A model generated the notes under the pieces. It had not been told where the DNA came from. It made no database searches and saw nothing but the letters and a program-made list of their open reading frames with translations. Positions 1-8,745 of a stretch of DNA of 34,354 nt are shown here, piece after piece. The stretch comes from a virus (Duplodnaviria > Caudoviricetes): positions 1 through 34,354 of IMG/VR virus record IMGVR_UViG_3300028610_002076. One strand, given 5' to 3'. Each line of letters begins with the position of its first letter. Positions within the stretch are counted from its first letter, which is position 1. A program made the translations under genes and the position numbers.

Positions 1-183
1 AAAGATAGAATATTAACAAATAAGCATTTAATGAAATTATATATAGAAAAGAAATTGACAGCTGATGATGTTGCTGCAGTTTTAGAATGCTCTCCAGATT
101 ATGTTCAAAATTGGCTAATAGATAAATGGAAGACAAATCCAGAATATGAAGAAATTAGTAAAGAAGTCAAACAACAAGTGTAA
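1..183 (+). CDS. 3' end of an HTH-containing protein (possibly small terminase or other DNA-binding protein), truncated by the window edge
   Basis: Frame 1 is open from base 1 to TAA 181-183: KDRILTNKHLMKLYIEKKLTADDVAAVLECSPDYVQNWLIDKW..., an HTH-like 'LT.DDVA.VL.CS..YV..W' pattern. Not in the ORF track. Confidence 0.55.
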   Translation, partial: KDRILTNKHLMKLYIEKKLTADDVAAVLECSPDYVQNWLIDKWKTNPEYEEISKEVKQQV

Positions 184-361
184 AAAGTGTAAATTTGGTT
201 ATCTATACAATTCTATGATTTCTTCAAAACGATTTATGTGGCTAGAAAAATGCACTAGTTGTGATTTTAAAAAGGAACATGGGGAAAGAAGGAAGAAAAT
301 GAGAAATGACGAAAGTTCTAGACCAAGAAAAACAAAAGATGAAGAAGGGGATGTAAGATGA
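146..361 (+). CDS. small Zn-ribbon-like protein
   Basis: 71 aa with CKKC and CTSC pairs; overlaps the upstream ORF. Confidence 0.5.
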   Translation: MKKLVKKSNNKCKKCKFGYLYNSMISSKRFMWLEKCTSCDFKKEHGERRKKMRNDESSRPRKTKDEEGDVR

Positions 362-499
362 AAGATAGTATAAGTAGTAAAATGATAGATAAACAAGGCG
401 AAAGTTAAAATGAAACCAATAGGAGCGTAAAATGGGAGCAGGAGATGGTTCTTGAAATAAAGGACGAAGGATAAAATGAAAGAAAGTATAGGAAGTTAA
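339..499 (+). repeat. tandem array of coupled minigenes (stop-N-start junctions)
   Basis: MKKGM* 339-356, MKDSISSKMIDKQGES* 358-408, MKPIGA* 410-430, MGAGDGS* 432-455, (ATA)KDEG* 457-474, MKESIGS* 476-499. Each starts exactly 1 nt after the previous stop. Confidence 0.6.
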
Positions 500-516
500 A
501 AATACTTTTACCAAAA

Positions 517-592
517 TGCGGATGGCTAGGACTGGTGTTCTGAAGTGTCTCATAAGCACTTAACGTGAGTTCGATTCTCATGTCCGCTTCCA
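517..592 (+). tRNA. tRNA-Met(CAT) (or Ile2)
   Basis: Acceptor (T)GCGGAT/GTCCGC(T) with a U1:U72 mismatch; anticodon arm AGTGT-CTCATAA-GCACT; T arm GTGAG-TTCGATT-CTCAT; encoded CCA 590-592. Confidence 0.85.
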
Positions 593-666
593 CAGAGATT
601 AGGATAGTGGCAGTCCATATGGTTTGGGACCATAGGGCAGTGGTTCGATTCCACTATTTCTGACCA
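593..666 (+). tRNA. tRNA-Pro(TGG)
   Basis: Acceptor CAGAGAT/ATTTCTG; anticodon arm TATGG-TTTGGGA-CCATA; GGTTCGATTCC; ACCA end. Confidence 0.93.
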
Positions 667-779
667 GGCAAGTAACGGACAAGGCTGTAGCAATTGAGGG
701 TTTTCTAGAAATCTGGAATAAATAACTTGAAACCAATAGTTATCTCAATTGATGGGTAGCGAGTGGTTACTTGTCACCA
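667..779 (+). ncRNA. CCA-terminated structured non-tRNA RNA A (113 nt)
   Basis: Exactly fills the gap between tRNA-Pro and tRNA-Trp. 10-bp terminal stem GGCAAGTAAC(667-676)/GTTACTTGTC(766-775) followed by A-CCA; inner helices GCTGT/GTAGC, CAATTGAG/CTCAATTG and ATAACT/AGTTAT. Confidence 0.7.
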
Positions 780-853
780 AGGAGTTTAGTGTAGTGGCAA
801 CACATCTGTCTCCAAAACAGCTGATGTGGGTTCGATTCCTACAACTCCTGCCA
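780..853 (+). tRNA. tRNA-Trp(CCA)
   Basis: Acceptor AGGAGTT/AACTCCT; anticodon arm CTGT-CTCCAAA-ACAG; GGTTCGATTCC; GCCA end. Confidence 0.93.
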
Positions 854-885
854 CTTTACGTACTTTTACGTAGTTTTACGTACCA
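854..885 (+). repeat. 3x 10-bp tandem repeat (TTTACGTA) spacer ending in CCA
   Basis: CTTTACGTA-CTTTTACGTA-GTTTTACGTA-CCA; each unit carries the palindrome TACGTA. Confidence 0.85.
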
Positions 886-961
886 TGAAGGATAGCTCAG
901 ACAGTAGAGCAGTGGTTTGAAGAACCACGTGTCGTGGGTGCGATTCCCTCTCCTTCAGCCA
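886..961 (+). tRNA. tRNA-Phe(GAA)
   Basis: Acceptor TGAAGGA/TCCTTCA; anticodon arm GTGGT-TTGAAGA-ACCAC; T loop TGCGATT; GCCA end. Confidence 0.9.
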
Positions 962-1035
962 GCGTCTTTATTTCAAAGGCAGAATCTTTGGCTTCCAACC
1001 AGAGGATGAGATTTCGAAATTCTCAAGACGCTCCA
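962..1035 (+). tRNA. tRNA-Gly(TCC)
   Basis: Acceptor GCGTCTT/AAGACGC; anticodon arm TTTGG-CTTCCAA-CCAGA; U73-CCA; atypical T-stem closing pair. Confidence 0.88.
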
Positions 1036-1110
1036 GGCTGTGTAGCCGAGCAGTGAGGCAACTGTCTGCAAAACAGTTCCACGTAGGTGCAAATCCTACC
1101 ACAGTCTCCA
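1036..1110 (+). tRNA. tRNA-Cys(GCA)
   Basis: Acceptor GGCTGTG/CACAGTC; anticodon arm ACTGT-CTGCAAA-ACAGT; U73-CCA. Confidence 0.92.
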
Positions 1111-1185
1111 GGGACTATAGTTTAATTGGGAAAACTCCTGCTTTGCAAGCAAGAATTCTCGGTTCGATTCCGAGTAGCTCCACCA
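1111..1185 (+). tRNA. tRNA-Ala(TGC)
   Basis: Acceptor GGGACTA/TAGCTCC with G3:U70; anticodon loop TTTGCAA; GGTTCGATTCC; ACCA end. Confidence 0.92.
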
Positions 1186-1297
1186 ATAGTTAATAGAGAG
1201 GTTTCCATCGCAATGAGGGTCTGCCCTGAATCCGAGGTTAAATGCATTTAGCCCTAAAAAAAATAATATCGGATACGTCATTGTATTAACTATTCCA
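1186..1297 (+). ncRNA. CCA-terminated structured non-tRNA RNA B (112 nt)
   Basis: Exactly fills the gap between tRNA-Ala and tRNA-Val. Perfect 10-bp terminal stem ATAGTTAATA(1186-1195)/TATTAACTAT(1284-1293) followed by T-CCA; inner helices CAATGA/TCATTG, GGG/CCC, ATCCGA/TCGGAT and GGTTAAA/TTTAGCC. Confidence 0.7.
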
Positions 1298-1371
1298 AGT
1301 CTGTTGGTTCAATAGAAGAACGTCTGGCTTACATCCAGAAAATGAGGGTGCAATTCCTTCACGGACTACCA
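1298..1371 (+). tRNA. tRNA-Val(TAC)
   Basis: Acceptor AGTCTGT/ACGGACT; anticodon arm TCTGG-CTTACAT-CCAGA; T loop TGCAATT; ACCA end. Confidence 0.9.
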
Positions 1372-1443
1372 GCCTTCATAGTTTAACAAGCAAAACTACT
1401 GTTTTGTAAACAGAAGTTGGGTGTGCAAGTCATCCTGTCGGCT
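1372..1443 (+). tRNA. tRNA-Thr(TGT), possibly degenerate
   Basis: Anticodon arm CTGT-TTTGTAA-ACAG; T arm GGGTG-TGCAAGT-CATCC; acceptor GCCTTCA/TGTCGGC has two mismatches; followed by CTG instead of CCA. Confidence 0.72.
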
Positions 1444-1722: not shown

Positions 1723-2309
1723 AACGAAGGGCTTCTCCTGCCTAAAAAGGAGAAAAAACAGAATGAAAAAAGAAGAAGTAAAAAAGGCTGTTGAGCTTGC
1801 CGAAAAAGAGCTCAAAGAAAAACGAATAAATAAAGTTAAAGAAATTGTTAAAAGAACTTTGGAAGCTATTGATAAAGAAGATGGAATAATTAAAGGAGCT
1901 ACAGAAAGACGTAGAATTTTAAAGATGGATTTAGATGATTTAAAACAAGGTCGTTTAGATAGAATTGAAGAAAGACAAAAGAAAGATCCTAAAGCTGAAA
2001 AAGTAAGTGTTGTCAAAGTTATAAAAGAGATTATCAGGGAAAGAGAAGTTCCTGTTTATCCTATTCCTTACTGGTATCAACCTTATAGATTAGAATGGAA
2101 CCCACCTTATGATCCAAATAGATTTTATTGTAGCACTGATGATGTTGTAACGATGACAGATAGTGCAAATAATTTAACTTTTGCTACAGAAGCTAATGGA
2201 ATAACTATTGATTGTTCAGTAGCTAAAAATTATAGTGCTGGAACTTATAATATTGATGGACAAATAATTAATTTCAGATAATTAATCGTAGGAGAAACCC
2301 TTCGTTCCA
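1723..2309 (+). repeat. 19-nt long-range inverted repeat enclosing ORF 1763-2281, followed by CCA
   Basis: AACGAAGGGCTTCTCCTGC (1723-1741) vs GTAGGAGAAACCCTTCGTT (2288-2306): 17 Watson-Crick pairs, one G-U and one C-A mismatch; CCA at 2307-2309. Confidence 0.8.
1763..2281 (+). CDS. hypothetical protein (coiled-coil N-terminus, Pro/Trp/Tyr-rich middle)
   Basis: 172 aa; AGGAG SD at 1748-1752; codon usage typical of the window. Confidence 0.85.
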   Translation: MKKEEVKKAVELAEKELKEKRINKVKEIVKRTLEAIDKEDGIIKGATERRRILKMDLDDLKQGRLDRIEERQKKDPKAEKVSVVKVIKEIIREREVPVYPIPYWYQPYRLEWNPPYDPNRFYCSTDDVVTMTDSANNLTFATEANGITIDCSVAKNYSAGTYNIDGQIINFR

Positions 2310-4051: not shown

Positions 4052-5959
4052 ATGGCATTAGAAATAAAAGGCAAAACACAGTCGCTTCGTTGGCTTGCTG
4101 ACCTTTTGTCTTTTTTCCAAGCAGAAACAATTAAAGTACCTACTGATTATAGAAATCAAGTTATAAAAACTAAACAACTTTTAGAAAATGATGTATCAGG
4201 AATAGTAGGAACTATGTTAGATTTTGCTATTCAGTGTGCTTTAGTTGATTATAGAATTGAAACACCTAATGCCAATTTAACTGAAGAATTAAACAATTGG
4301 TTAAAAAAGGTTAATCTAAAAATAAATACTGATGAAGGAGTTAAAAGTATTCCTACAGGTTTAGAATCTTTAGCTAAAGAATATTTTAGGGAAAGATGGA
4401 AAGGTTCTTCTAATTTACTATTAAGAACTTTTTGGGATAAACAAAACAATTTACAATTACCTACTACCCTTTTCTTTATAGATGGTGAAGATATTAAAGT
4501 TAAAAGTAAAAAAGGAAAACAGAGTGCAGTAATATTAGGTGAAGAAAAATATTATTTAAGAATTAATGATGCTGAAAAAGATGATATAAAACTTCCTAGA
4601 TTCAAAGAAGAAATGATATTTGTTCAAAGACCTTACGAAAGTTGGAGTAATTTAATTCCTATTCCTTTCCTTATTAGAAGAGGTCTTTTTCATAATATGA
4701 GTTTTCATAAATTAATGTCTTCTAAAGGTGAATTTATAGTTGGTAAAGCTTTAGAATATTTGTTTGTTATGAAAAAAGGTAGCGAAAAAATGACAATAGA
4801 AGGTAGAGCTGAATTAACTTATAGTGAAGAAGATTTAAAGAAAGTTAGTAAAGATTTACAAAACCTTATACAAAAAAAGAAAAGTGAATCTGGATTACCT
4901 GGTTATGTGACAGGTTTTGATACAGAAATTTCTGAATACATACCTGATTATAAAAAAGCACTTGATGCTGCTATTTATAGTCCCATAGAAAAAAGGTTAT
5001 TATCTGGTTTAGGTTTAATAGAAATTATACAAGGAACAGCTTCTACTAGGAGAGAATCTGTTTTAAATCCAAAACCTTTTGTTTCAGAAATAAAATCAGG
5101 AATAAAAGATTTTAAAACATTACTTCGTGATATAATTCAAATTATTATAGAAAAAAATAGTAAATCTCATCCTAAATGGATGGGAGCTGAAATAAAGATA
5201 GTTTCTAGTCCTGTAAAAGAATTTATTACTCAGGAACTTAGAACAATGCTTCGTAGTATTTATGATAGAGGTGGATTATCTAAAAGAACATTAGTAGAAG
5301 TAGCTGGTGAACAAGATTTTGATGTTGAAGTCCAATATAGAAAAACAGAGAAAAAAGAAGGTCTTGATAAAGCATTATATCCACCTGTAATTCTAAATGT
5401 AGAAAAGGATATTGAACCAAAAAAACCTGTATCAGATGATAAAAAATCTATAGAAAAGAAAAACTTCTTACAAGCTTTAGAAGAAGCTGAATGTCCACAT
5501 TGCAAAGAAATATTTGATTTTGAGTCTCAAGAAGAAATAGAAGTTGGAAAAGTTAAGTGTCCTAATTGTCATAAAGGATTAACAAGGAAGGAATTATTAA
5601 AACTAGAAGAAGCTAAAATTTTTGAAGAAGCTCCTTATACTAATAAGAATTATCCTCCTCAATTAAAAAATCTTCCTGCAGGTGCAAGGTCAATTTGGAT
5701 AGATACATTCAACTCTGTGTATAAACAAACAAAAAATGAAACTCAAGCAAGACAAGCATCATGGAGAAATGTAAAATTGAGATATAAAAAATCTGGTGAT
5801 AGTTGGGTACGTAAATCTAAAGGAGAATTTGAAGAATCTTTACAACAACTTCCTTTAGATGACATTATAGAATTAAAAAAGTTAGATGTGTTAAATAAAC
5901 AAAGCAAGATCTTGGATAGACTTATAAAGGAAGAGGCAAAAGATGAAACTACTGACTAG
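4052..5959 (+). CDS. portal protein with C-terminal Zn ribbon and ChaB domain
   Basis: Follows terL; ~450-aa helical core ending in 'GGLSKRTLVE'; CPHC...CPNC; ChaB-like LPAGARSIWIDTFNS...ASWRNVKLRYKKSGDSW. Confidence 0.8.
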   Translation: MALEIKGKTQSLRWLADLLSFFQAETIKVPTDYRNQVIKTKQLLENDVSGIVGTMLDFAIQCALVDYRIETPNANLTEELNNWLKKVNLKINTDEGVKSIPTGLESLAKEYFRERWKGSSNLLLRTFWDKQNNLQLPTTLFFIDGEDIKVKSKKGKQSAVILGEEKYYLRINDAEKDDIKLPRFKEEMIFVQRPYESWSNLIPIPFLIRRGLFHNMSFHKLMSSKGEFIVGKALEYLFVMKKGSEKMTIEGRAELTYSEEDLKKVSKDLQNLIQKKKSESGLPGYVTGFDTEISEYIPDYKKALDAAIYSPIEKRLLSGLGLIEIIQGTASTRRESVLNPKPFVSEIKSGIKDFKTLLRDIIQIIIEKNSKSHPKWMGAEIKIVSSPVKEFITQELRTMLRSIYDRGGLSKRTLVEVAGEQDFDVEVQYRKTEKKEGLDKALYPPVILNVEKDIEPKKPVSDDKKSIEKKNFLQALEEAECPHCKEIFDFESQEEIEVGKVKCPNCHKGLTRKELLKLEEAKIFEEAPYTNKNYPPQLKNLPAGARSIWIDTFNSVYKQTKNETQARQASWRNVKLRYKKSGDSWVRKSKGEFEESLQQLPLDDIIELKKLDVLNKQSKILDRLIKEEAKDETTD

Positions 5960-6230
5960 AGACGGAAAGGAAATTAAGGAATTAGATTTAGGTATAGTAG
6001 AAGCAGGAACAAGTAAGAAATATGAATATTTAATATATAATGATGCTGAAGTAGAAGTAACTGATATAAAGGTATTAATAGGTCATGATGAAGTACAAAT
6101 TTTAGATTTTCCTAAAGAATTAGAATCTAAACAAAAAGGTTCACTTACAATAAAATGGTCGCCTTCTTTAACATTAAAAAGAGGCTTACAAACTTTAATC
6201 AAATTAGCTGGTACGGAGCTGTACCGTTGA
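5943..6230 (+). CDS. small beta-sandwich (Ig-like) protein
   Basis: 95 aa, 'LDLGIVEAG...YLIYN...LTIKWSP' pattern typical of Ig-like folds; GAGG SD. Confidence 0.6.
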   Translation: MKLLTRDGKEIKELDLGIVEAGTSKKYEYLIYNDAEVEVTDIKVLIGHDEVQILDFPKELESKQKGSLTIKWSPSLTLKRGLQTLIKLAGTELYR

Positions 6231-6856
6231 AAAGAGTTTATACTAAAGTAACTAAAAAATTTTTAGAACAAGAATATTTAGGAAATAAAAAAACCATTCA
6301 AAAAATAGCAAATAAAATTGGTTGCAGTTATACTTATATATGTAATAGGATGATTGAATTTAATATTGATAGAAGAAGTTTTAAAGAATTAACTCAAGGT
6401 AAAAATAATCCTTTCTTTGGTAAACATCATACAGAAGAAAGTAAAAGAAAAAGAGCTTTAAATATGCCTGACCAATCAGGTATAAATAATCCCATGTTTA
6501 ATAAATATCATTCTGAAGAAGCTAAAGAAAAAATAAGACAAAAAGCTATAGGCAGAAAACATACTAACGAAACTAAAAAAAGAATGAGTTTATCACATGG
6601 TGGAACAGGAATTAAAAAAGATGATGATTATCCATATGAATATTTCAAAATAAGAAACAAAATATTAAAAAGAGATAATTATATTTGTCAACTTTGTTTA
6701 GAATATGGAAATGAAGTTCATCACATTGACTATGATAAAGATAATAATGAAGAATGGAATTTATGTTGTTCATGTATTAAATGTAATAGAAAAGTTAATT
6801 ATAATAGAGAATATTGGAAAAATTATTTTCAATCCAAAAGTAAGGTATTAATATAA
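6227..6856 (+). CDS. HNH homing endonuclease with NUMOD3 repeats
   Basis: NPFFGKHHTEESK / NPMFNKYHSEEAKEKI / GRKHTNETKKRMS repeats; CQLC...VHHIDYDKDNN..NL...CIKCN. Probable start TTG 6227 (GGAG SD upstream, overlapping the upstream TGA) rather than 6155. Confidence 0.9.
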   Translation: MKRVYTKVTKKFLEQEYLGNKKTIQKIANKIGCSYTYICNRMIEFNIDRRSFKELTQGKNNPFFGKHHTEESKRKRALNMPDQSGINNPMFNKYHSEEAKEKIRQKAIGRKHTNETKKRMSLSHGGTGIKKDDDYPYEYFKIRNKILKRDNYICQLCLEYGNEVHHIDYDKDNNEEWNLCCSCIKCNRKVNYNREYWKNYFQSKSKVLI

Positions 6857-8745
6857 TGCCAGAAGGTTTTGAGTATCATAAAGATTTAACTGGAGCAGAA
6901 ATTCATGTTCCAGGATATACACAAGCAACAGATCCTGGAGCAGTAGGAGTTAGTAAATATTGGATAGACACTACATCAGGTGCAGGTGCTTGGATATTAA
7001 AAGTTAGAAATGTTGCTAATACAGGTTGGGAAGTAATAGCTGGTTCTGAAACAATGTCACATGCTCAATTAAATGATATGCCTGATACTGGTGGAATTAA
7101 TACTGACCATGATGCAAGATATTATACAGAAACAGAAATAAATACTGCTTTGGATTTAAAAGCAGACAAAACTACTATTATTTCAGCAGGTGTTGGATTG
7201 TTAGGAGGTGGAGATATATCAACTAATAGAATTTTGGCTGTTGATACTTCTCTTATTGCTACAATCGCTTATGTTAATGCTCAAAATCCAGAATTATATT
7301 GGGATAGACCTTCTGGTGGAATAACAATTATGCCATTTACTCCAAATGATAGCTTGGATATGGGTAGTGGCAATATTACTACTTCAGGCACATTAGATTC
7401 TTCCAATATGGCATTTGAAAAGGTTGCAGGAAAACTTACCTCTATTACTCCTGTTGCTGACCTTGACGATATGTCCGTAGGTGGAACGCCTACAGCTTTG
7501 GCATATACACAATACCGAGTTCAGATAGATTTAGCGGCAGGAACAGACACTTTCAAATGGAGCAATGACAATGGTTCTTCTTGGGAAGTAGAAGATGTTA
7601 CGATTACAGGTTCAGCACAAACACTTGAGAATGGCATTGAAGTAACTTTTGGTGCTACCACAGGACACACTCTTGGTGATAAGTGGGATTTTGATGTAGG
7701 CACAGTTATAATGCAGAAAAACCCTGTTTATGACGAGGACTTTCTTTTTGGCTCACCTCAACTTGCAGATGATGGGGATACTGACCACGATAAACGTATG
7801 TGGTTTGACAAATCAAAAGGAGCGTTTAGGGTAGGGCGTGTAACTGGTGATGACTGGGATGATTCTAATGTAGGCAATTATTCAGTAGCAATGGGTAACA
7901 ACTCAACAGCAAGCGGAACTTACAGCACAGCAATAGGTTCTTATGCAACAGCAAGTGGATCCTCCAGCATAGCAATGGGAGGGGACGCAATAGCAAGTGG
8001 TAACACCTCTATAGCAATGGGTAGTAGCTCAGAAGCAAGCGGTCCCTACAGTATAACAATGGGTGCTAGCTCAACAGCAACTGCCTACGCTGCTACAGCA
8101 ATGGGATATTATTGTAATGCAACTGCATCCTATGCCACAGCAATGGGAGGTAGTACAGCAGCAAGTGGTTTCTACAGTATGGCAATGGGGAACCAGACAA
8201 CAGCACAAGCATTTGCTTCTACAGTTCTTGGAAGATATAATGTCATTAGTGGAACTACTGACTCGTGGGAAGCTACTGAACCTGTATTTGTTATTGGGAT
8301 TGGGGCAAGTGCTGGTAGTCCTGCCAATGCTATGACAGTATTAAAGAATGGCAACATTGGCATCGGCGTAACAGACCCCCACTCTAAACTTGAAGTAAAC
8401 GGAGCAATATCCACTGGACAAGGGTTATTGGTTGCATCAGACCAGACAGAGAATGCTTATGATGTCTCAGGAATAAATTGCCTTATGATAGACTGCTCAG
8501 GTCCCGCTTCTGTTACAATCGGTGGATTTTCAGGTGGGGTCGCAGGACAATTTTTACACGTAATGAAGATAGATGATACTGCTGGAGAGTTTGCTAAATT
8601 AACACATGGGTCAGGGGCAGGAACACAAAAGATATACTTGCACGCAGGAGCAGATGAGACACTGACAGCAAATTATGGAGGTTGGCAACTTGGGTGTGAT
8701 GGAACAAGTTGGTTTGATGCTTCACACTCAAAACACGTGCCGTAA
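6856..8745 (+). CDS. fibre/adhesin protein with YadA-head (Hep/Hag-like) beta-roll repeats
   Basis: About nine 14-aa 'S.AMG....ASG' repeats (7876-8241), neck-like 'GNIGIGVTDPHSKLEVNG', and a 'DHDARYYTETE' fibre motif. Confidence 0.8.
   Translation: MPEGFEYHKDLTGAEIHVPGYTQATDPGAVGVSKYWIDTTSGAGAWILKVRNVANTGWEVIAGSETMSHAQLNDMPDTGGINTDHDARYYTETEINTALDLKADKTTIISAGVGLLGGGDISTNRILAVDTSLIATIAYVNAQNPELYWDRPSGGITIMPFTPNDSLDMGSGNITTSGTLDSSNMAFEKVAGKLTSITPVADLDDMSVGGTPTALAYTQYRVQIDLAAGTDTFKWSNDNGSSWEVEDVTITGSAQTLENGIEVTFGATTGHTLGDKWDFDVGTVIMQKNPVYDEDFLFGSPQLADDGDTDHDKRMWFDKSKGAFRVGRVTGDDWDDSNVGNYSVAMGNNSTASGTYSTAIGSYATASGSSSIAMGGDAIASGNTSIAMGSSSEASGPYSITMGASSTATAYAATAMGYYCNATASYATAMGGSTAASGFYSMAMGNQTTAQAFASTVLGRYNVISGTTDSWEATEPVFVIGIGASAGSPANAMTVLKNGNIGIGVTDPHSKLEVNGAISTGQGLLVASDQTENAYDVSGINCLMIDCSGPASVTIGGFSGGVAGQFLHVMKIDDTAGEFAKLTHGSGAGTQKIYLHAGADETLTANYGGWQLGCDGTSWFDASHSKHVP
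7876..8241 (+). repeat. 42-bp coding tandem repeat (about 9 copies)
   Basis: GCAATGGG...GCAAG(T/C)GG recurs every 42 nt. Confidence 0.85.

What the first reader, a model, noticed from the sequence alone, without database searches (positions are those of the whole stretch)
279..499. Chain of translationally coupled minigenes (5-16 codons) directly upstream of the tRNA array
Seen in sequence: six micro-ORFs are joined by stop-N-start junctions, mostly TAA-A-ATG: MKKGM (339-356), MKDSISSKMIDKQGES (358-408), MKPIGA (410-430), MGAGDGS (432-455), ATA-KDEG (457-474) and MKESIGS (476-499). The TRA-A junction motifs at 378, 406, 428, 453, 472 and 497 are spaced 28, 22, 25, 19 and 25 nt apart, all 3n+1. 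That is expected if each unit is a whole number of codons; the naive chance is (1/3)^5. Most units contain a GGA/AGGAG that could serve as the SD for the next start. Unit 358-380 (ATGAAAGATAGTATAAGTAG-TAA) is a copy of unit 476-499 (ATGAAAGAAAGTATAGGAAGTTAA) that lost one base and fused to its neighbour. Further micro-ORFs (MGKEGRK 279-302, MTKVLDQEKQKMKKGM 306-356) extend the chain inside the Zn-ribbon gene. Established: lambda bar minigenes cause peptidyl-tRNA drop-off and deplete specific tRNAs. Inference: the array may be a translation-hijacking device paired with phage tRNAs, a ribosome relay that protects the tRNA precursor from termination or decay, or a source of micro-peptides.
Basis: partly seen in the sequence, partly recalled or inferred. 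Interest (0 to 1): 0.85.

Follow-up and report, generated by a model that had tools for sequence, protein, structure and literature searches.

The report
Coupled mini-gene chain before phage tRNAs
In an uncultured bacterial virus the short stretch in front of its tRNA genes is tiled by five or six tiny reading frames joined stop-to-start, and close relatives reshuffle or lose them, so it is likely a tolerated, duplication-built spacer that ribosomes would read through rather than a device for hijacking the host.

Summary
The chain is real. All micro-ORFs sit where stated, and a strict stop-N-ATG chain of four arose in 0 of 5000 local shuffles and 3 of 300 whole-window shuffles. The (1/3)^5 figure is overstated: the 354-378 step (24 nt) was left out, and two junctions have no ATG.

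The chain starts at an ATGA overlap with a real Zn-ribbon gene. It ends inside a hairpin-plus-ACCA element, of a kind this phage family often puts before tRNAs.

Three contigs of close relatives (one study) show a hypervariable strip. One lacks 175 nt of it; two carry rearranged units that are still in frame and joined stop-to-start. No comparable chain occurs in the other 189 family loci.

The best reading (0.5) is a spacer built by duplication and deletion of a ribosome-site/stop/start junction, likely read through by coupled translation and tolerated, with the peptides irrelevant. A selected ribosome relay that shields or gates the tRNA precursor remains possible (0.2). Lambda-bar-type tRNA depletion paired with phage tRNAs is poorly supported: the array has no tRNA-Ser, though 3 of 5 units end in Ser. 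Tandem promoters lack -35 boxes. No RNA data were available.

The parts
1..183 (+). 3' end of a 271-aa gene conserved upstream of the terminase large subunit; likely small terminase subunit (inferred from position and a weak Pfam hit)
   Evidence: full ORF in L061 6959-7774; tblastn hits in 90 of 141 family loci, redundant ones included; PF10668 E 0.011, below cut-off
146..361 (+). Real Zn-ribbon gene (CxxC...CxxC); its stop overlaps the first chain start (ATGA); predicted ribosome source of the chain
   Evidence: homologues in L017, L099, L101; 41 proteins at E<=0.001
279..356 (+). Out-of-frame micro-ORFs inside the Zn-ribbon gene (279-302, 306-356, 339-356); likely incidental
   Evidence: SD score at 339 is -0.7 kcal/mol; 309-356 is replaced in two relatives
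358..408 (+). Units 1+2, a 16-codon ORF: a copy of the last unit that lost one base and reads on in frame into unit 2 (382-408)
   Evidence: (family D7)
410..430 (+). Unit 3, 6 codons, +1 junction; borderline likeness to the last unit
432..455 (+). Unit 4, 7 codons, strong SD; its G-D-G-S-stop end recurs as the tail of the Zn-ribbon frame in a relative
445..474 (+). Unit 5: either ATA-started 457-474 or ATG-started 445-474; a relative has an ATG-started unit in this slot
476..499 (+). Unit 6, 7 codons; last ORF, its stop lies in the loop of the hairpin
482..513 (+). 8-bp hairpin (482-489 with 502-509) followed by ACCA, 3 nt before tRNA-Met; a family-wide kind of pre-tRNA element
   Evidence: folds; 482-511 unchanged in relative X3 and 472-508 in X5; the CCA itself is altered in X3
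517..1443 (+). tRNA array: Met, Pro, Trp, Phe, Gly, Cys, Ala, Val and a weaker Thr(TGT)-like gene, with two unannotated CCA-ended RNAs
   Evidence: ARAGORN; Rfam; folds

Best explanation
The 140-nt strip between a Zn-ribbon gene and the first tRNA gene of this phage is tiled by five or six tiny ORFs joined stop-to-start; it likely arose by repeated duplication and deletion of a ribosome-site/stop/start junction, is likely read through by termination-reinitiation, and is likely tolerated rather than purpose-built. Shown: the tiling, the ATGA overlap with a real upstream gene, one clear internal duplication (358/476), SD-grade sequence at most starts, an unstructured purine-rich RNA up to a final hairpin-ACCA, and gain, loss and exchange of units in close relatives. 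Inferred: that ribosomes leaving the Zn-ribbon gene restart at each unit and are released at 497-499 on top of the hairpin; that variants persist only if they keep the strip translated (weak purifying selection against naked RNA ahead of the tRNAs); and that the peptides are by-products whose Met, Gly and Lys residues reflect the start codon, the SD and A-richness.
For: Chain beyond chance. Direct repeat 354-382/472-500 at 83%. Relative X3 record 9 bridges 306 to 482 (68 and 186 aligned bases on either side) with 175 nt replaced by 30, leaving the Zn-ribbon stop next to the hairpin: the strip is dispensable. X5 records 15 and 18 carry different unit orders, each still stop-to-start. The junction form is ordinary for the family: +1 is the third commonest gap (45 of 414 gene pairs) and TAAAATG is its joint commonest form (17 of 45); the same 16-nt junction joins two real genes in L074. 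No other SD-bearing chain longer than 3 in 190 family loci, 1.76 Mb, redundant ones included (stricter SD set). No 3n+1 excess among TAAAATG clusters in unrelated viruses (105 of 403 spacings). Fold z -0.02 for 279-516. Tails of many Zn-ribbon homologues look shaped by the next gene's SD and start (my reading).
Against: It is not a plain tandem repeat: four junctions are an exact TAAAATG, a form seen at only 17 of 414 real junctions, while 13 of 15 unit interiors are not significantly alike. That pattern suggests selection on the junctions and favours the relay rival. There is no downstream protein gene, so the usual reason for keeping coupling is absent. The relatives are three short contigs from two samples of one study; X5 record 18 aligns over only 37 bases, and records 15 and 18 may not come from one phage. 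Translation was not observed. Some differences to X5 are synonymous (see micro-peptide rival).
Confidence: 0.5

Rival explanations
1. A selected ribosome relay: the chain is kept to carry ribosomes up to the hairpin-ACCA, so that the tRNA precursor escapes premature termination or decay, or so that its 5' processing depends on ongoing translation.
For: Exact junctions with divergent interiors. Every visible junction in relatives is stop-to-start with gap 0 or +1 (3 of 3). The one-base loss in unit 1 still yields an unbroken ORF. The last stop sits in the hairpin loop, 17 nt before tRNA-Met. A two-codon minigene is reported to act in cis, possibly by stabilising its mRNA (PMC8708949, abstract).
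Against: X3 does without 175 nt of it. No equivalent in the other family loci, including those with large tRNA arrays; L078 and L017 have a near-consensus sigma-70 promoter just before the array instead. The strip is 7% C, a poor Rho-loading site by general knowledge.
Confidence: 0.2
2. The units encode functional micro-peptides, some of them stubs of small genes typical of this region.
For: Motif [AN][RG]DG[STI]: 5 of 9 hits in 141 loci lie in frames of 36 codons or fewer, all within 600 nt of a tRNA (one is this phage itself); L084 holds it as an 8-codon ORF with ATGA overlaps on both sides; L093's version weakly matches DUF5320 1-20 (E 0.55, below cut-off). Against X5, unit 4 keeps Ser and stop through synonymous changes (TCT/AGT, TGA/TAA), and unit 5 differs synonymously at three codons (read by eye).
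Against: Compared with unit 2, the same X5 unit has 3 of 3 changed codons non-synonymous. Four more motif hits in 49 further loci are all in long frames. The collinear likeness to L077 is not significant (P 0.11 against shuffles, 0.044 against random family segments). Units are swapped or lost in close relatives; 5-8 residues is very short for a product.
Confidence: 0.1
3. The TAAAAT repeats are tandem -10 boxes or protein-binding sites, and the reading frames are a side effect.
For: TAAAAT matches TATAAT at 5 of 6; two sites score 9 of 12 in the sigma-70 scan. tRNA arrays need strong transcription, and the family uses sigma-70-type promoters.
Against: The best -35 hexamers match 4 of 6 or fewer and no site has an extended -10 TG; family promoters elsewhere are near consensus (33 hits, redundant loci included). 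The idea does not explain the fixed G after TAAAAT, the in-frame stops, or the gap-0 junctions in relatives. GGA is not enriched and the RNA lacks hairpins, which argues against a CsrA-type sponge.
Confidence: 0.1
4. Lambda-bar-type minigenes that release peptidyl-tRNA and starve the host of particular tRNAs which the phage replaces.
For: Four units are 8 codons or fewer and have an SD, inside the length range in which drop-off is reported (PMC2490762, passages).
Against: The effect is reported to rise from 8 to 2 codons, and these units are at the weak end. Last sense codons are Ser in 3 of 5 and the array has no tRNA-Ser; 9 of 36 codons are read by array tRNAs. The 7.6 kb further upstream holds no other tRNA, but the genome is incomplete. 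The strip is dispensable in X3.
Confidence: 0.07
5. Chance in an A/G-rich spacer.
For: The region is 50% A and 26% G; loose chain definitions are common in shuffles.
Against: Strict chain 0 of 5000 locally and 3 of 300 window-wide; TAAAATG x4 in 0 of 10000; internal repeat; homologous units in relatives.
Confidence: 0.03

Closest known systems
Translational coupling by termination-reinitiation, with short ORFs that deliver ribosomes (review PMC12548453; integron ORF-11 and short ORFs in attC sites, PMC8876359)
   Same: Gaps of -4 and +1, SD inside the upstream ORF, peptide sequence apparently unimportant.
   Different: Five or six in series, and the end point is a hairpin-CCA and tRNA genes, not a protein gene; coupling not tested.
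Mycobacterial interspersed repetitive units (MIRUs), as summarised in PMC12548453 section 11
   Same: Short repeat units that hold an ORF and keep coupling intact, so that gain or loss of units is tolerated; unit content varies between relatives.
   Different: Single locus, not a dispersed mobile repeat; mostly +1 rather than -4 junctions; interiors diverged; not inserted at the start of a protein gene.
Lambda bar and synthetic toxic minigenes (PMC2490762 passages; original bar papers not read)
   Same: SD-led ORFs of 8 codons or fewer on a phage transcript.
   Different: Longer than the most active minigenes, coupled in a chain, last codons mostly not matched by the phage's tRNAs; toxicity untested.
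mg2 two-codon minigene of axe-txe (PMC8708949, abstract and outline)
   Same: A mini-ORF acting in cis, possibly by shielding RNA.
   Different: There a single minigene raises translation of a protein gene; here a chain precedes stable RNAs.

Membership tests
Coupled ORFs (termination-reinitiation) | Stop-to-start spacing between -4 and +3 nt | tested here: met
   -4 at 358; +1 at 410, 432, 457 (ATA), 476; 0 or +1 in relatives
Coupled ORFs (termination-reinitiation) | SD for the downstream start inside the upstream ORF | tested here: met
   358, 410, 432, 445/457, 476 score -4.6 to -10.6 kcal/mol; real genes mean -5.8; only modestly above the G/A-rich background
Coupled ORFs (termination-reinitiation) | A downstream protein gene that receives the ribosomes | tested here: not met
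   chain ends at 499; hairpin-ACCA and tRNA-Met follow
Coupled ORFs (termination-reinitiation) | Downstream translation depends on upstream translation | not testable with these tools
   needs reporter fusions; no RNA holder listed
bar-type toxic minigenes | SD plus ORF of about 2-8 codons | tested here: met
   units of 5, 6, 7 and 7 codons; weak end of the reported range
bar-type toxic minigenes | Peptidyl-tRNA accumulation and toxicity in pth-defective cells, rescued by Pth or the cognate tRNA | not testable with these tools
   bench test
   2 of 5 last codons and 9 of 36 codons are read by array tRNAs; genome incomplete
MIRU-type repeats | Dispersed repeat inserted at start codons with -4 overlap | tested here: not met
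   only the window's own locus holds the units; one -4 junction only
MIRU-type repeats | Near-identical tandem copies | tested here: not met
   1 of 15 unit pairs clearly alike, 1 borderline
MIRU-type repeats | Unit number varies between close relatives with coupling kept | tested here: inconclusive
   varies in three short contigs of one study; full strips not seen
Sigma-70 tandem promoters | -35 hexamer at 16-18 nt or extended -10 TG | tested here: not met
Sigma-70 tandem promoters | Transcription starts just after each hexamer | not testable with these tools
   no RNA run held the stretch

The most novel reading that the evidence does not exclude
A translated leader for stable RNA: a modular chain of exchangeable minigenes, under selection for stop/start junctions but not for peptide sequence, hands ribosomes from a protein gene onto a tRNA-3'-end-mimicking hairpin and so ties survival or processing of the phage tRNA precursor to the host's translation state.
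Probability: 0.2. Interest if true: 0.75.

Novelty: new variant of a known kind. Interest (0 to 1): 0.4.

Why it matters
If the best reading holds, it is a neat natural case of a spacer that expands and contracts while staying translatable, here ahead of tRNA genes rather than a protein gene; of modest general interest. If the relay is selected, it would be a way for a phage to make tRNA output depend on translation, and a compact, easily tested system for how far ribosomes can be passed along without leaving the RNA. Eight literature searches listed no paper on a minigene chain before a phage tRNA array; the library lacks most subscription papers.

Tried and rejected
No whole genome is held for the window. 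Terminase single-sequence scan found only the same phage. Pattern scans of viral contigs: TAAAATG triads gave 124 loci from 9 of 64 parts, mostly simple or coding repeats, with no 3n+1 excess; the tRNA-Met pattern gave 1 virus with no chain upstream; the odd-RNA pattern gave none; the last-unit pattern gave 73 matches, none with chain context. BLAST against annotated phages hit tRNAs only. No RNA holder listed, which is no evidence on expression. Runs X2 and X4 gave only short or tRNA-level pieces over the strip and were not used. The apparent collinearity with L077 failed a shuffle test and is kept as a lead only; so is a three-ORF chain 532 nt before tRNA-Met in L078. Search of whole records covered 1 of 5 handles and gave only short matches. 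The idea that the units are standard tails of the Zn-ribbon family failed: none of the 43 other sequences shown ends like a unit. PHROGs, PDB and the Atlas named none of the neighbouring proteins usefully; 'terminase large subunit' rests on one source's name for P0095. No Rfam match over 279-516 at E<=5. Earlier-findings look-ups were empty. No structure or complex prediction was run; supplements were not read.

Full report
Context. The window is part of an uncultured tailed-phage-like genome: eight tRNAs by ARAGORN at 517-1371, a ninth weaker one by Rfam at 1372-1443, then a 528-aa gene with 480 relatives, one named terminase large subunit by a source, and a structural block with a tape-measure hit. 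Locus L061 is the same phage and extends 7.6 kb upstream. It shows that window 1-183 is the end of a 271-aa gene that precedes the terminase in the family. The host is unknown; strong SD use and near-consensus sigma-70 promoters point to a bacterium (inference), although one family contig is binned as a Woesearchaeota MAG.

Observation. Every ORF and junction listed is present. The strict chain of four ATG-started micro-ORFs joined stop+1 was reached by 0 of 5000 shuffles of 279-516 and by 3 of 300 locally shuffled whole windows; looser chain rules were not significant window-wide (124 and 28 of 300). The step 354-378 is 24 nt and was omitted, 453 has ATA, and 497 has no start. GGA is no commoner than composition predicts, but most starts pair with an anti-SD as well as the window's real genes do. 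The upstream micro-ORFs lie inside ORF 146-361, a real Zn-ribbon gene (homologues in L017, L099, L101; 41 proteins) whose stop overlaps the ATG at 358. The chain therefore most simply begins there.

Anatomy. Units 358 and 476 are copies (14 of 17 interior bases, P 0.0007), unit 410 is borderline, and 13 of 15 pairs are not significantly alike. Four junctions are exactly TAAAATG. Among 414 real gene junctions in family loci, +1 is the third commonest gap (45) and this form accounts for 17. So the junction is ordinary in kind but unusually uniform here. The RNA is unstructured (z -0.02) except for an 8-bp hairpin, 482-489 with 502-509, followed by ACCA and, 3 nt later, tRNA-Met. The last ORF forms the hairpin's 5' arm and stops in its loop. 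This element is a family habit: 82 of 127 non-redundant tRNAs that do not directly follow another called tRNA have CCA within 5 nt before them (4.8% expected), and 41 of those have a closing stem of 5 bp or more; some are missed tRNAs or tmRNA ends.

Relatives, distant. In 141 terminase loci (1.33 Mb, redundant ones included) the only SD-bearing chain of three or more was this phage's own. With a looser SD set and 190 loci there were one chain of six (this phage), two of three (L078, L349) and 44 of two. The region between the 271-aa gene and the tRNAs is variable and rich in small ORFs. A motif shared with unit 432 occurs in four other short ORFs near tRNAs, one weakly DUF5320-like (E 0.55), so that unit may be the stub of a small gene; four further hits in 49 later loci were all in long frames. 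L077 shares the tRNA-Met type and has tandem short ORFs in the same slot, but the DNA likeness is not significant. Unrelated viruses show no 3n+1 excess in TAAAATG clusters (105 of 403; partial scan).

Relatives, close. Run X1 holds the stretch in one piece without differences and may be its source. Three contigs from two samples of one other study are informative. X3 record 9 aligns over 239-306 and 482-667 and replaces the 175 nt between with 30 letters that end the Zn-ribbon frame with E-D-E-G-Q-G-V-R-stop; only the hairpin part of the last unit remains, with TTG in place of its ATG directly after the stop. X5 record 15 aligns over 148-308 and continues G-D-G-S-stop then ATG with no gap, so the tail of unit 432 is fused to the Zn-ribbon frame, with Ser and stop kept by different codons. 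Units thus come, go and change order, the visible junctions stay stop-to-start (3 of 3), the gap is 0 or +1, and the strip can be lost. Limits: short contigs, 30 loose letters shown, one study, and no proof that records 15 and 18 share a genome.

Mechanism. Best reading (0.5): duplication and deletion at a ribosome-site/stop/start junction built an expandable spacer. Ribosomes finishing the Zn-ribbon gene would restart unit after unit, since -4 to +3 spacings are reported as most efficient (PMC12548453, passages), and would leave at 497-499. Frame-keeping would reflect weak selection against untranslated RNA before the tRNAs, or mere tolerance. Tiling, repeat, SDs and variation are shown; translation, origin and selection are inferred. 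The strongest point against is the exact junctions with diverged interiors, which keeps a selected relay alive (0.2): a terminating ribosome would sit on the hairpin next to the tRNA 5' end and could shield or gate processing. Against that stand X3's loss of the strip and its absence across the family. Micro-peptides (0.1) have mixed support. Promoters or binding sites (0.1) lack -35 and extended -10 elements. The bar model (0.07) fails its pairing test: 9 of 36 codons and 2 of 5 last codons are read by array tRNAs, and three end in Ser with no tRNA-Ser seen; drop-off is reported to weaken from 2 to 8 codons (PMC2490762, passages).

Comparison. It works like coupled short ORFs that pass ribosomes on (integron ORF-11, PMC8876359 passages) and like MIRUs in tolerating unit changes (PMC12548453 section 11), but it is not a MIRU (single locus, diverged units, +1 junctions) and has no recipient protein gene. 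Papers seen: PMC2490762 passages; PMC8708949 abstract and outline; PMC12548453 passages and section 11; PMC8876359 passages; others only as search listings. The original bar and MIRU papers were not read. Remarks on Rho sites, CsrA sponges, RNase P hairpin substrates and 6S RNA are recalled. Earlier AI notes describe several junction duplications in other genomes as tolerated expansions and CCA-ended hairpins in other phages; they are leads, not support. This case differs from them in its diverged interiors and its tRNA end point.

Verdict. Real, non-random, locus-specific and variable; a new variant of a known kind; interest 0.4, rising to about 0.75 if the relay proves selected. Two side findings in the same region, the inverted repeat around the 172-aa gene and the unannotated CCA-ended RNA at 667-779, are better conserved than the chain and may deserve their own follow-up.

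Noticed in passing
window 1723-1739 and 2290-2306, around ORF 1763-2281: The 172-aa gene is bracketed by a long inverted repeat in 26 of 28 non-redundant homologous loci (P<=0.01 against shuffled flanks), with different arm sequences in each lineage. In the window the upstream arm overlaps a local hairpin that hides the SD. It could be a processing stem or a long-range translation switch. The protein has no Pfam, PHROG or usable Atlas match. It is far better conserved than the minigene chain.
   Followed up: partly
window 667-779; L077 2010-2083; L079 1525-1655; L144 2730-2822: Unannotated RNA between tRNA-Pro and tRNA-Trp: long closing stem, invariant internal-loop core, variable apical part, CCA end in the window and L077; fold z -3.6; 4 of 13 consensus pairs with two-sided change; no Rfam match at E<=5. 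The shape recalls 6S RNA (recalled, untested). Also present in a 152-kb virus found by an unrelated search.
   Followed up: partly
window 1186-1297: Second stem-closed, CCA-ended RNA between tRNA-Ala and tRNA-Val (z -2.35); close variants in runs X2 and X3; only a weak permuted-tmRNA overlap at E 0.037.
   Followed up: partly
family loci; window 482-513 and 854-885: CCA, often with a hairpin before it, precedes 82 of 127 spacer-preceded tRNAs in the family. In the window a triple TTTACGTA repeat ending in ACCA fills the Trp-Phe gap.
   Followed up: partly
L084 about 1573-1650; L079 about 1793-2180; L095 about 500-560: tmRNA-like 5' and 3' ends that ARAGORN did not call; in L084 the two ends are only about 75 nt apart, like a tmRNA with its middle removed (read by eye).
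   Followed up: no
L074 1070, L101 8592, L093 1210, L054 about 4000: Recurring very small SD-led genes near the tRNA region: Lys/Gly-rich 9-14 codon ORFs ending in Cys-Lys, and Gly/Arg-rich 34-36 codon ORFs weakly like DUF5320.
   Followed up: partly
L061 about 5700-6900: A 1.2-kb region without long ORFs between the divergent gene blocks, with repeated CCTCACTAT-type words and strong strand skew; possibly an origin or genome end.
   Followed up: no
window 517-592: tRNA-Met(CAT) has a U:U mismatch at the first acceptor pair and lacks the three G-C anticodon-stem pairs of initiator tRNAs (read by eye); Rfam scores it only weakly. ARAGORN missed the similar gene in L077.
   Followed up: no
window 667-671 and 1444-1707: Close relatives carry 153 extra bases after tRNA-Pro (X3) and lack the 1445-1700 segment with its small ORF (X3, X4), so the whole tRNA region gains and loses modules.
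   Followed up: no
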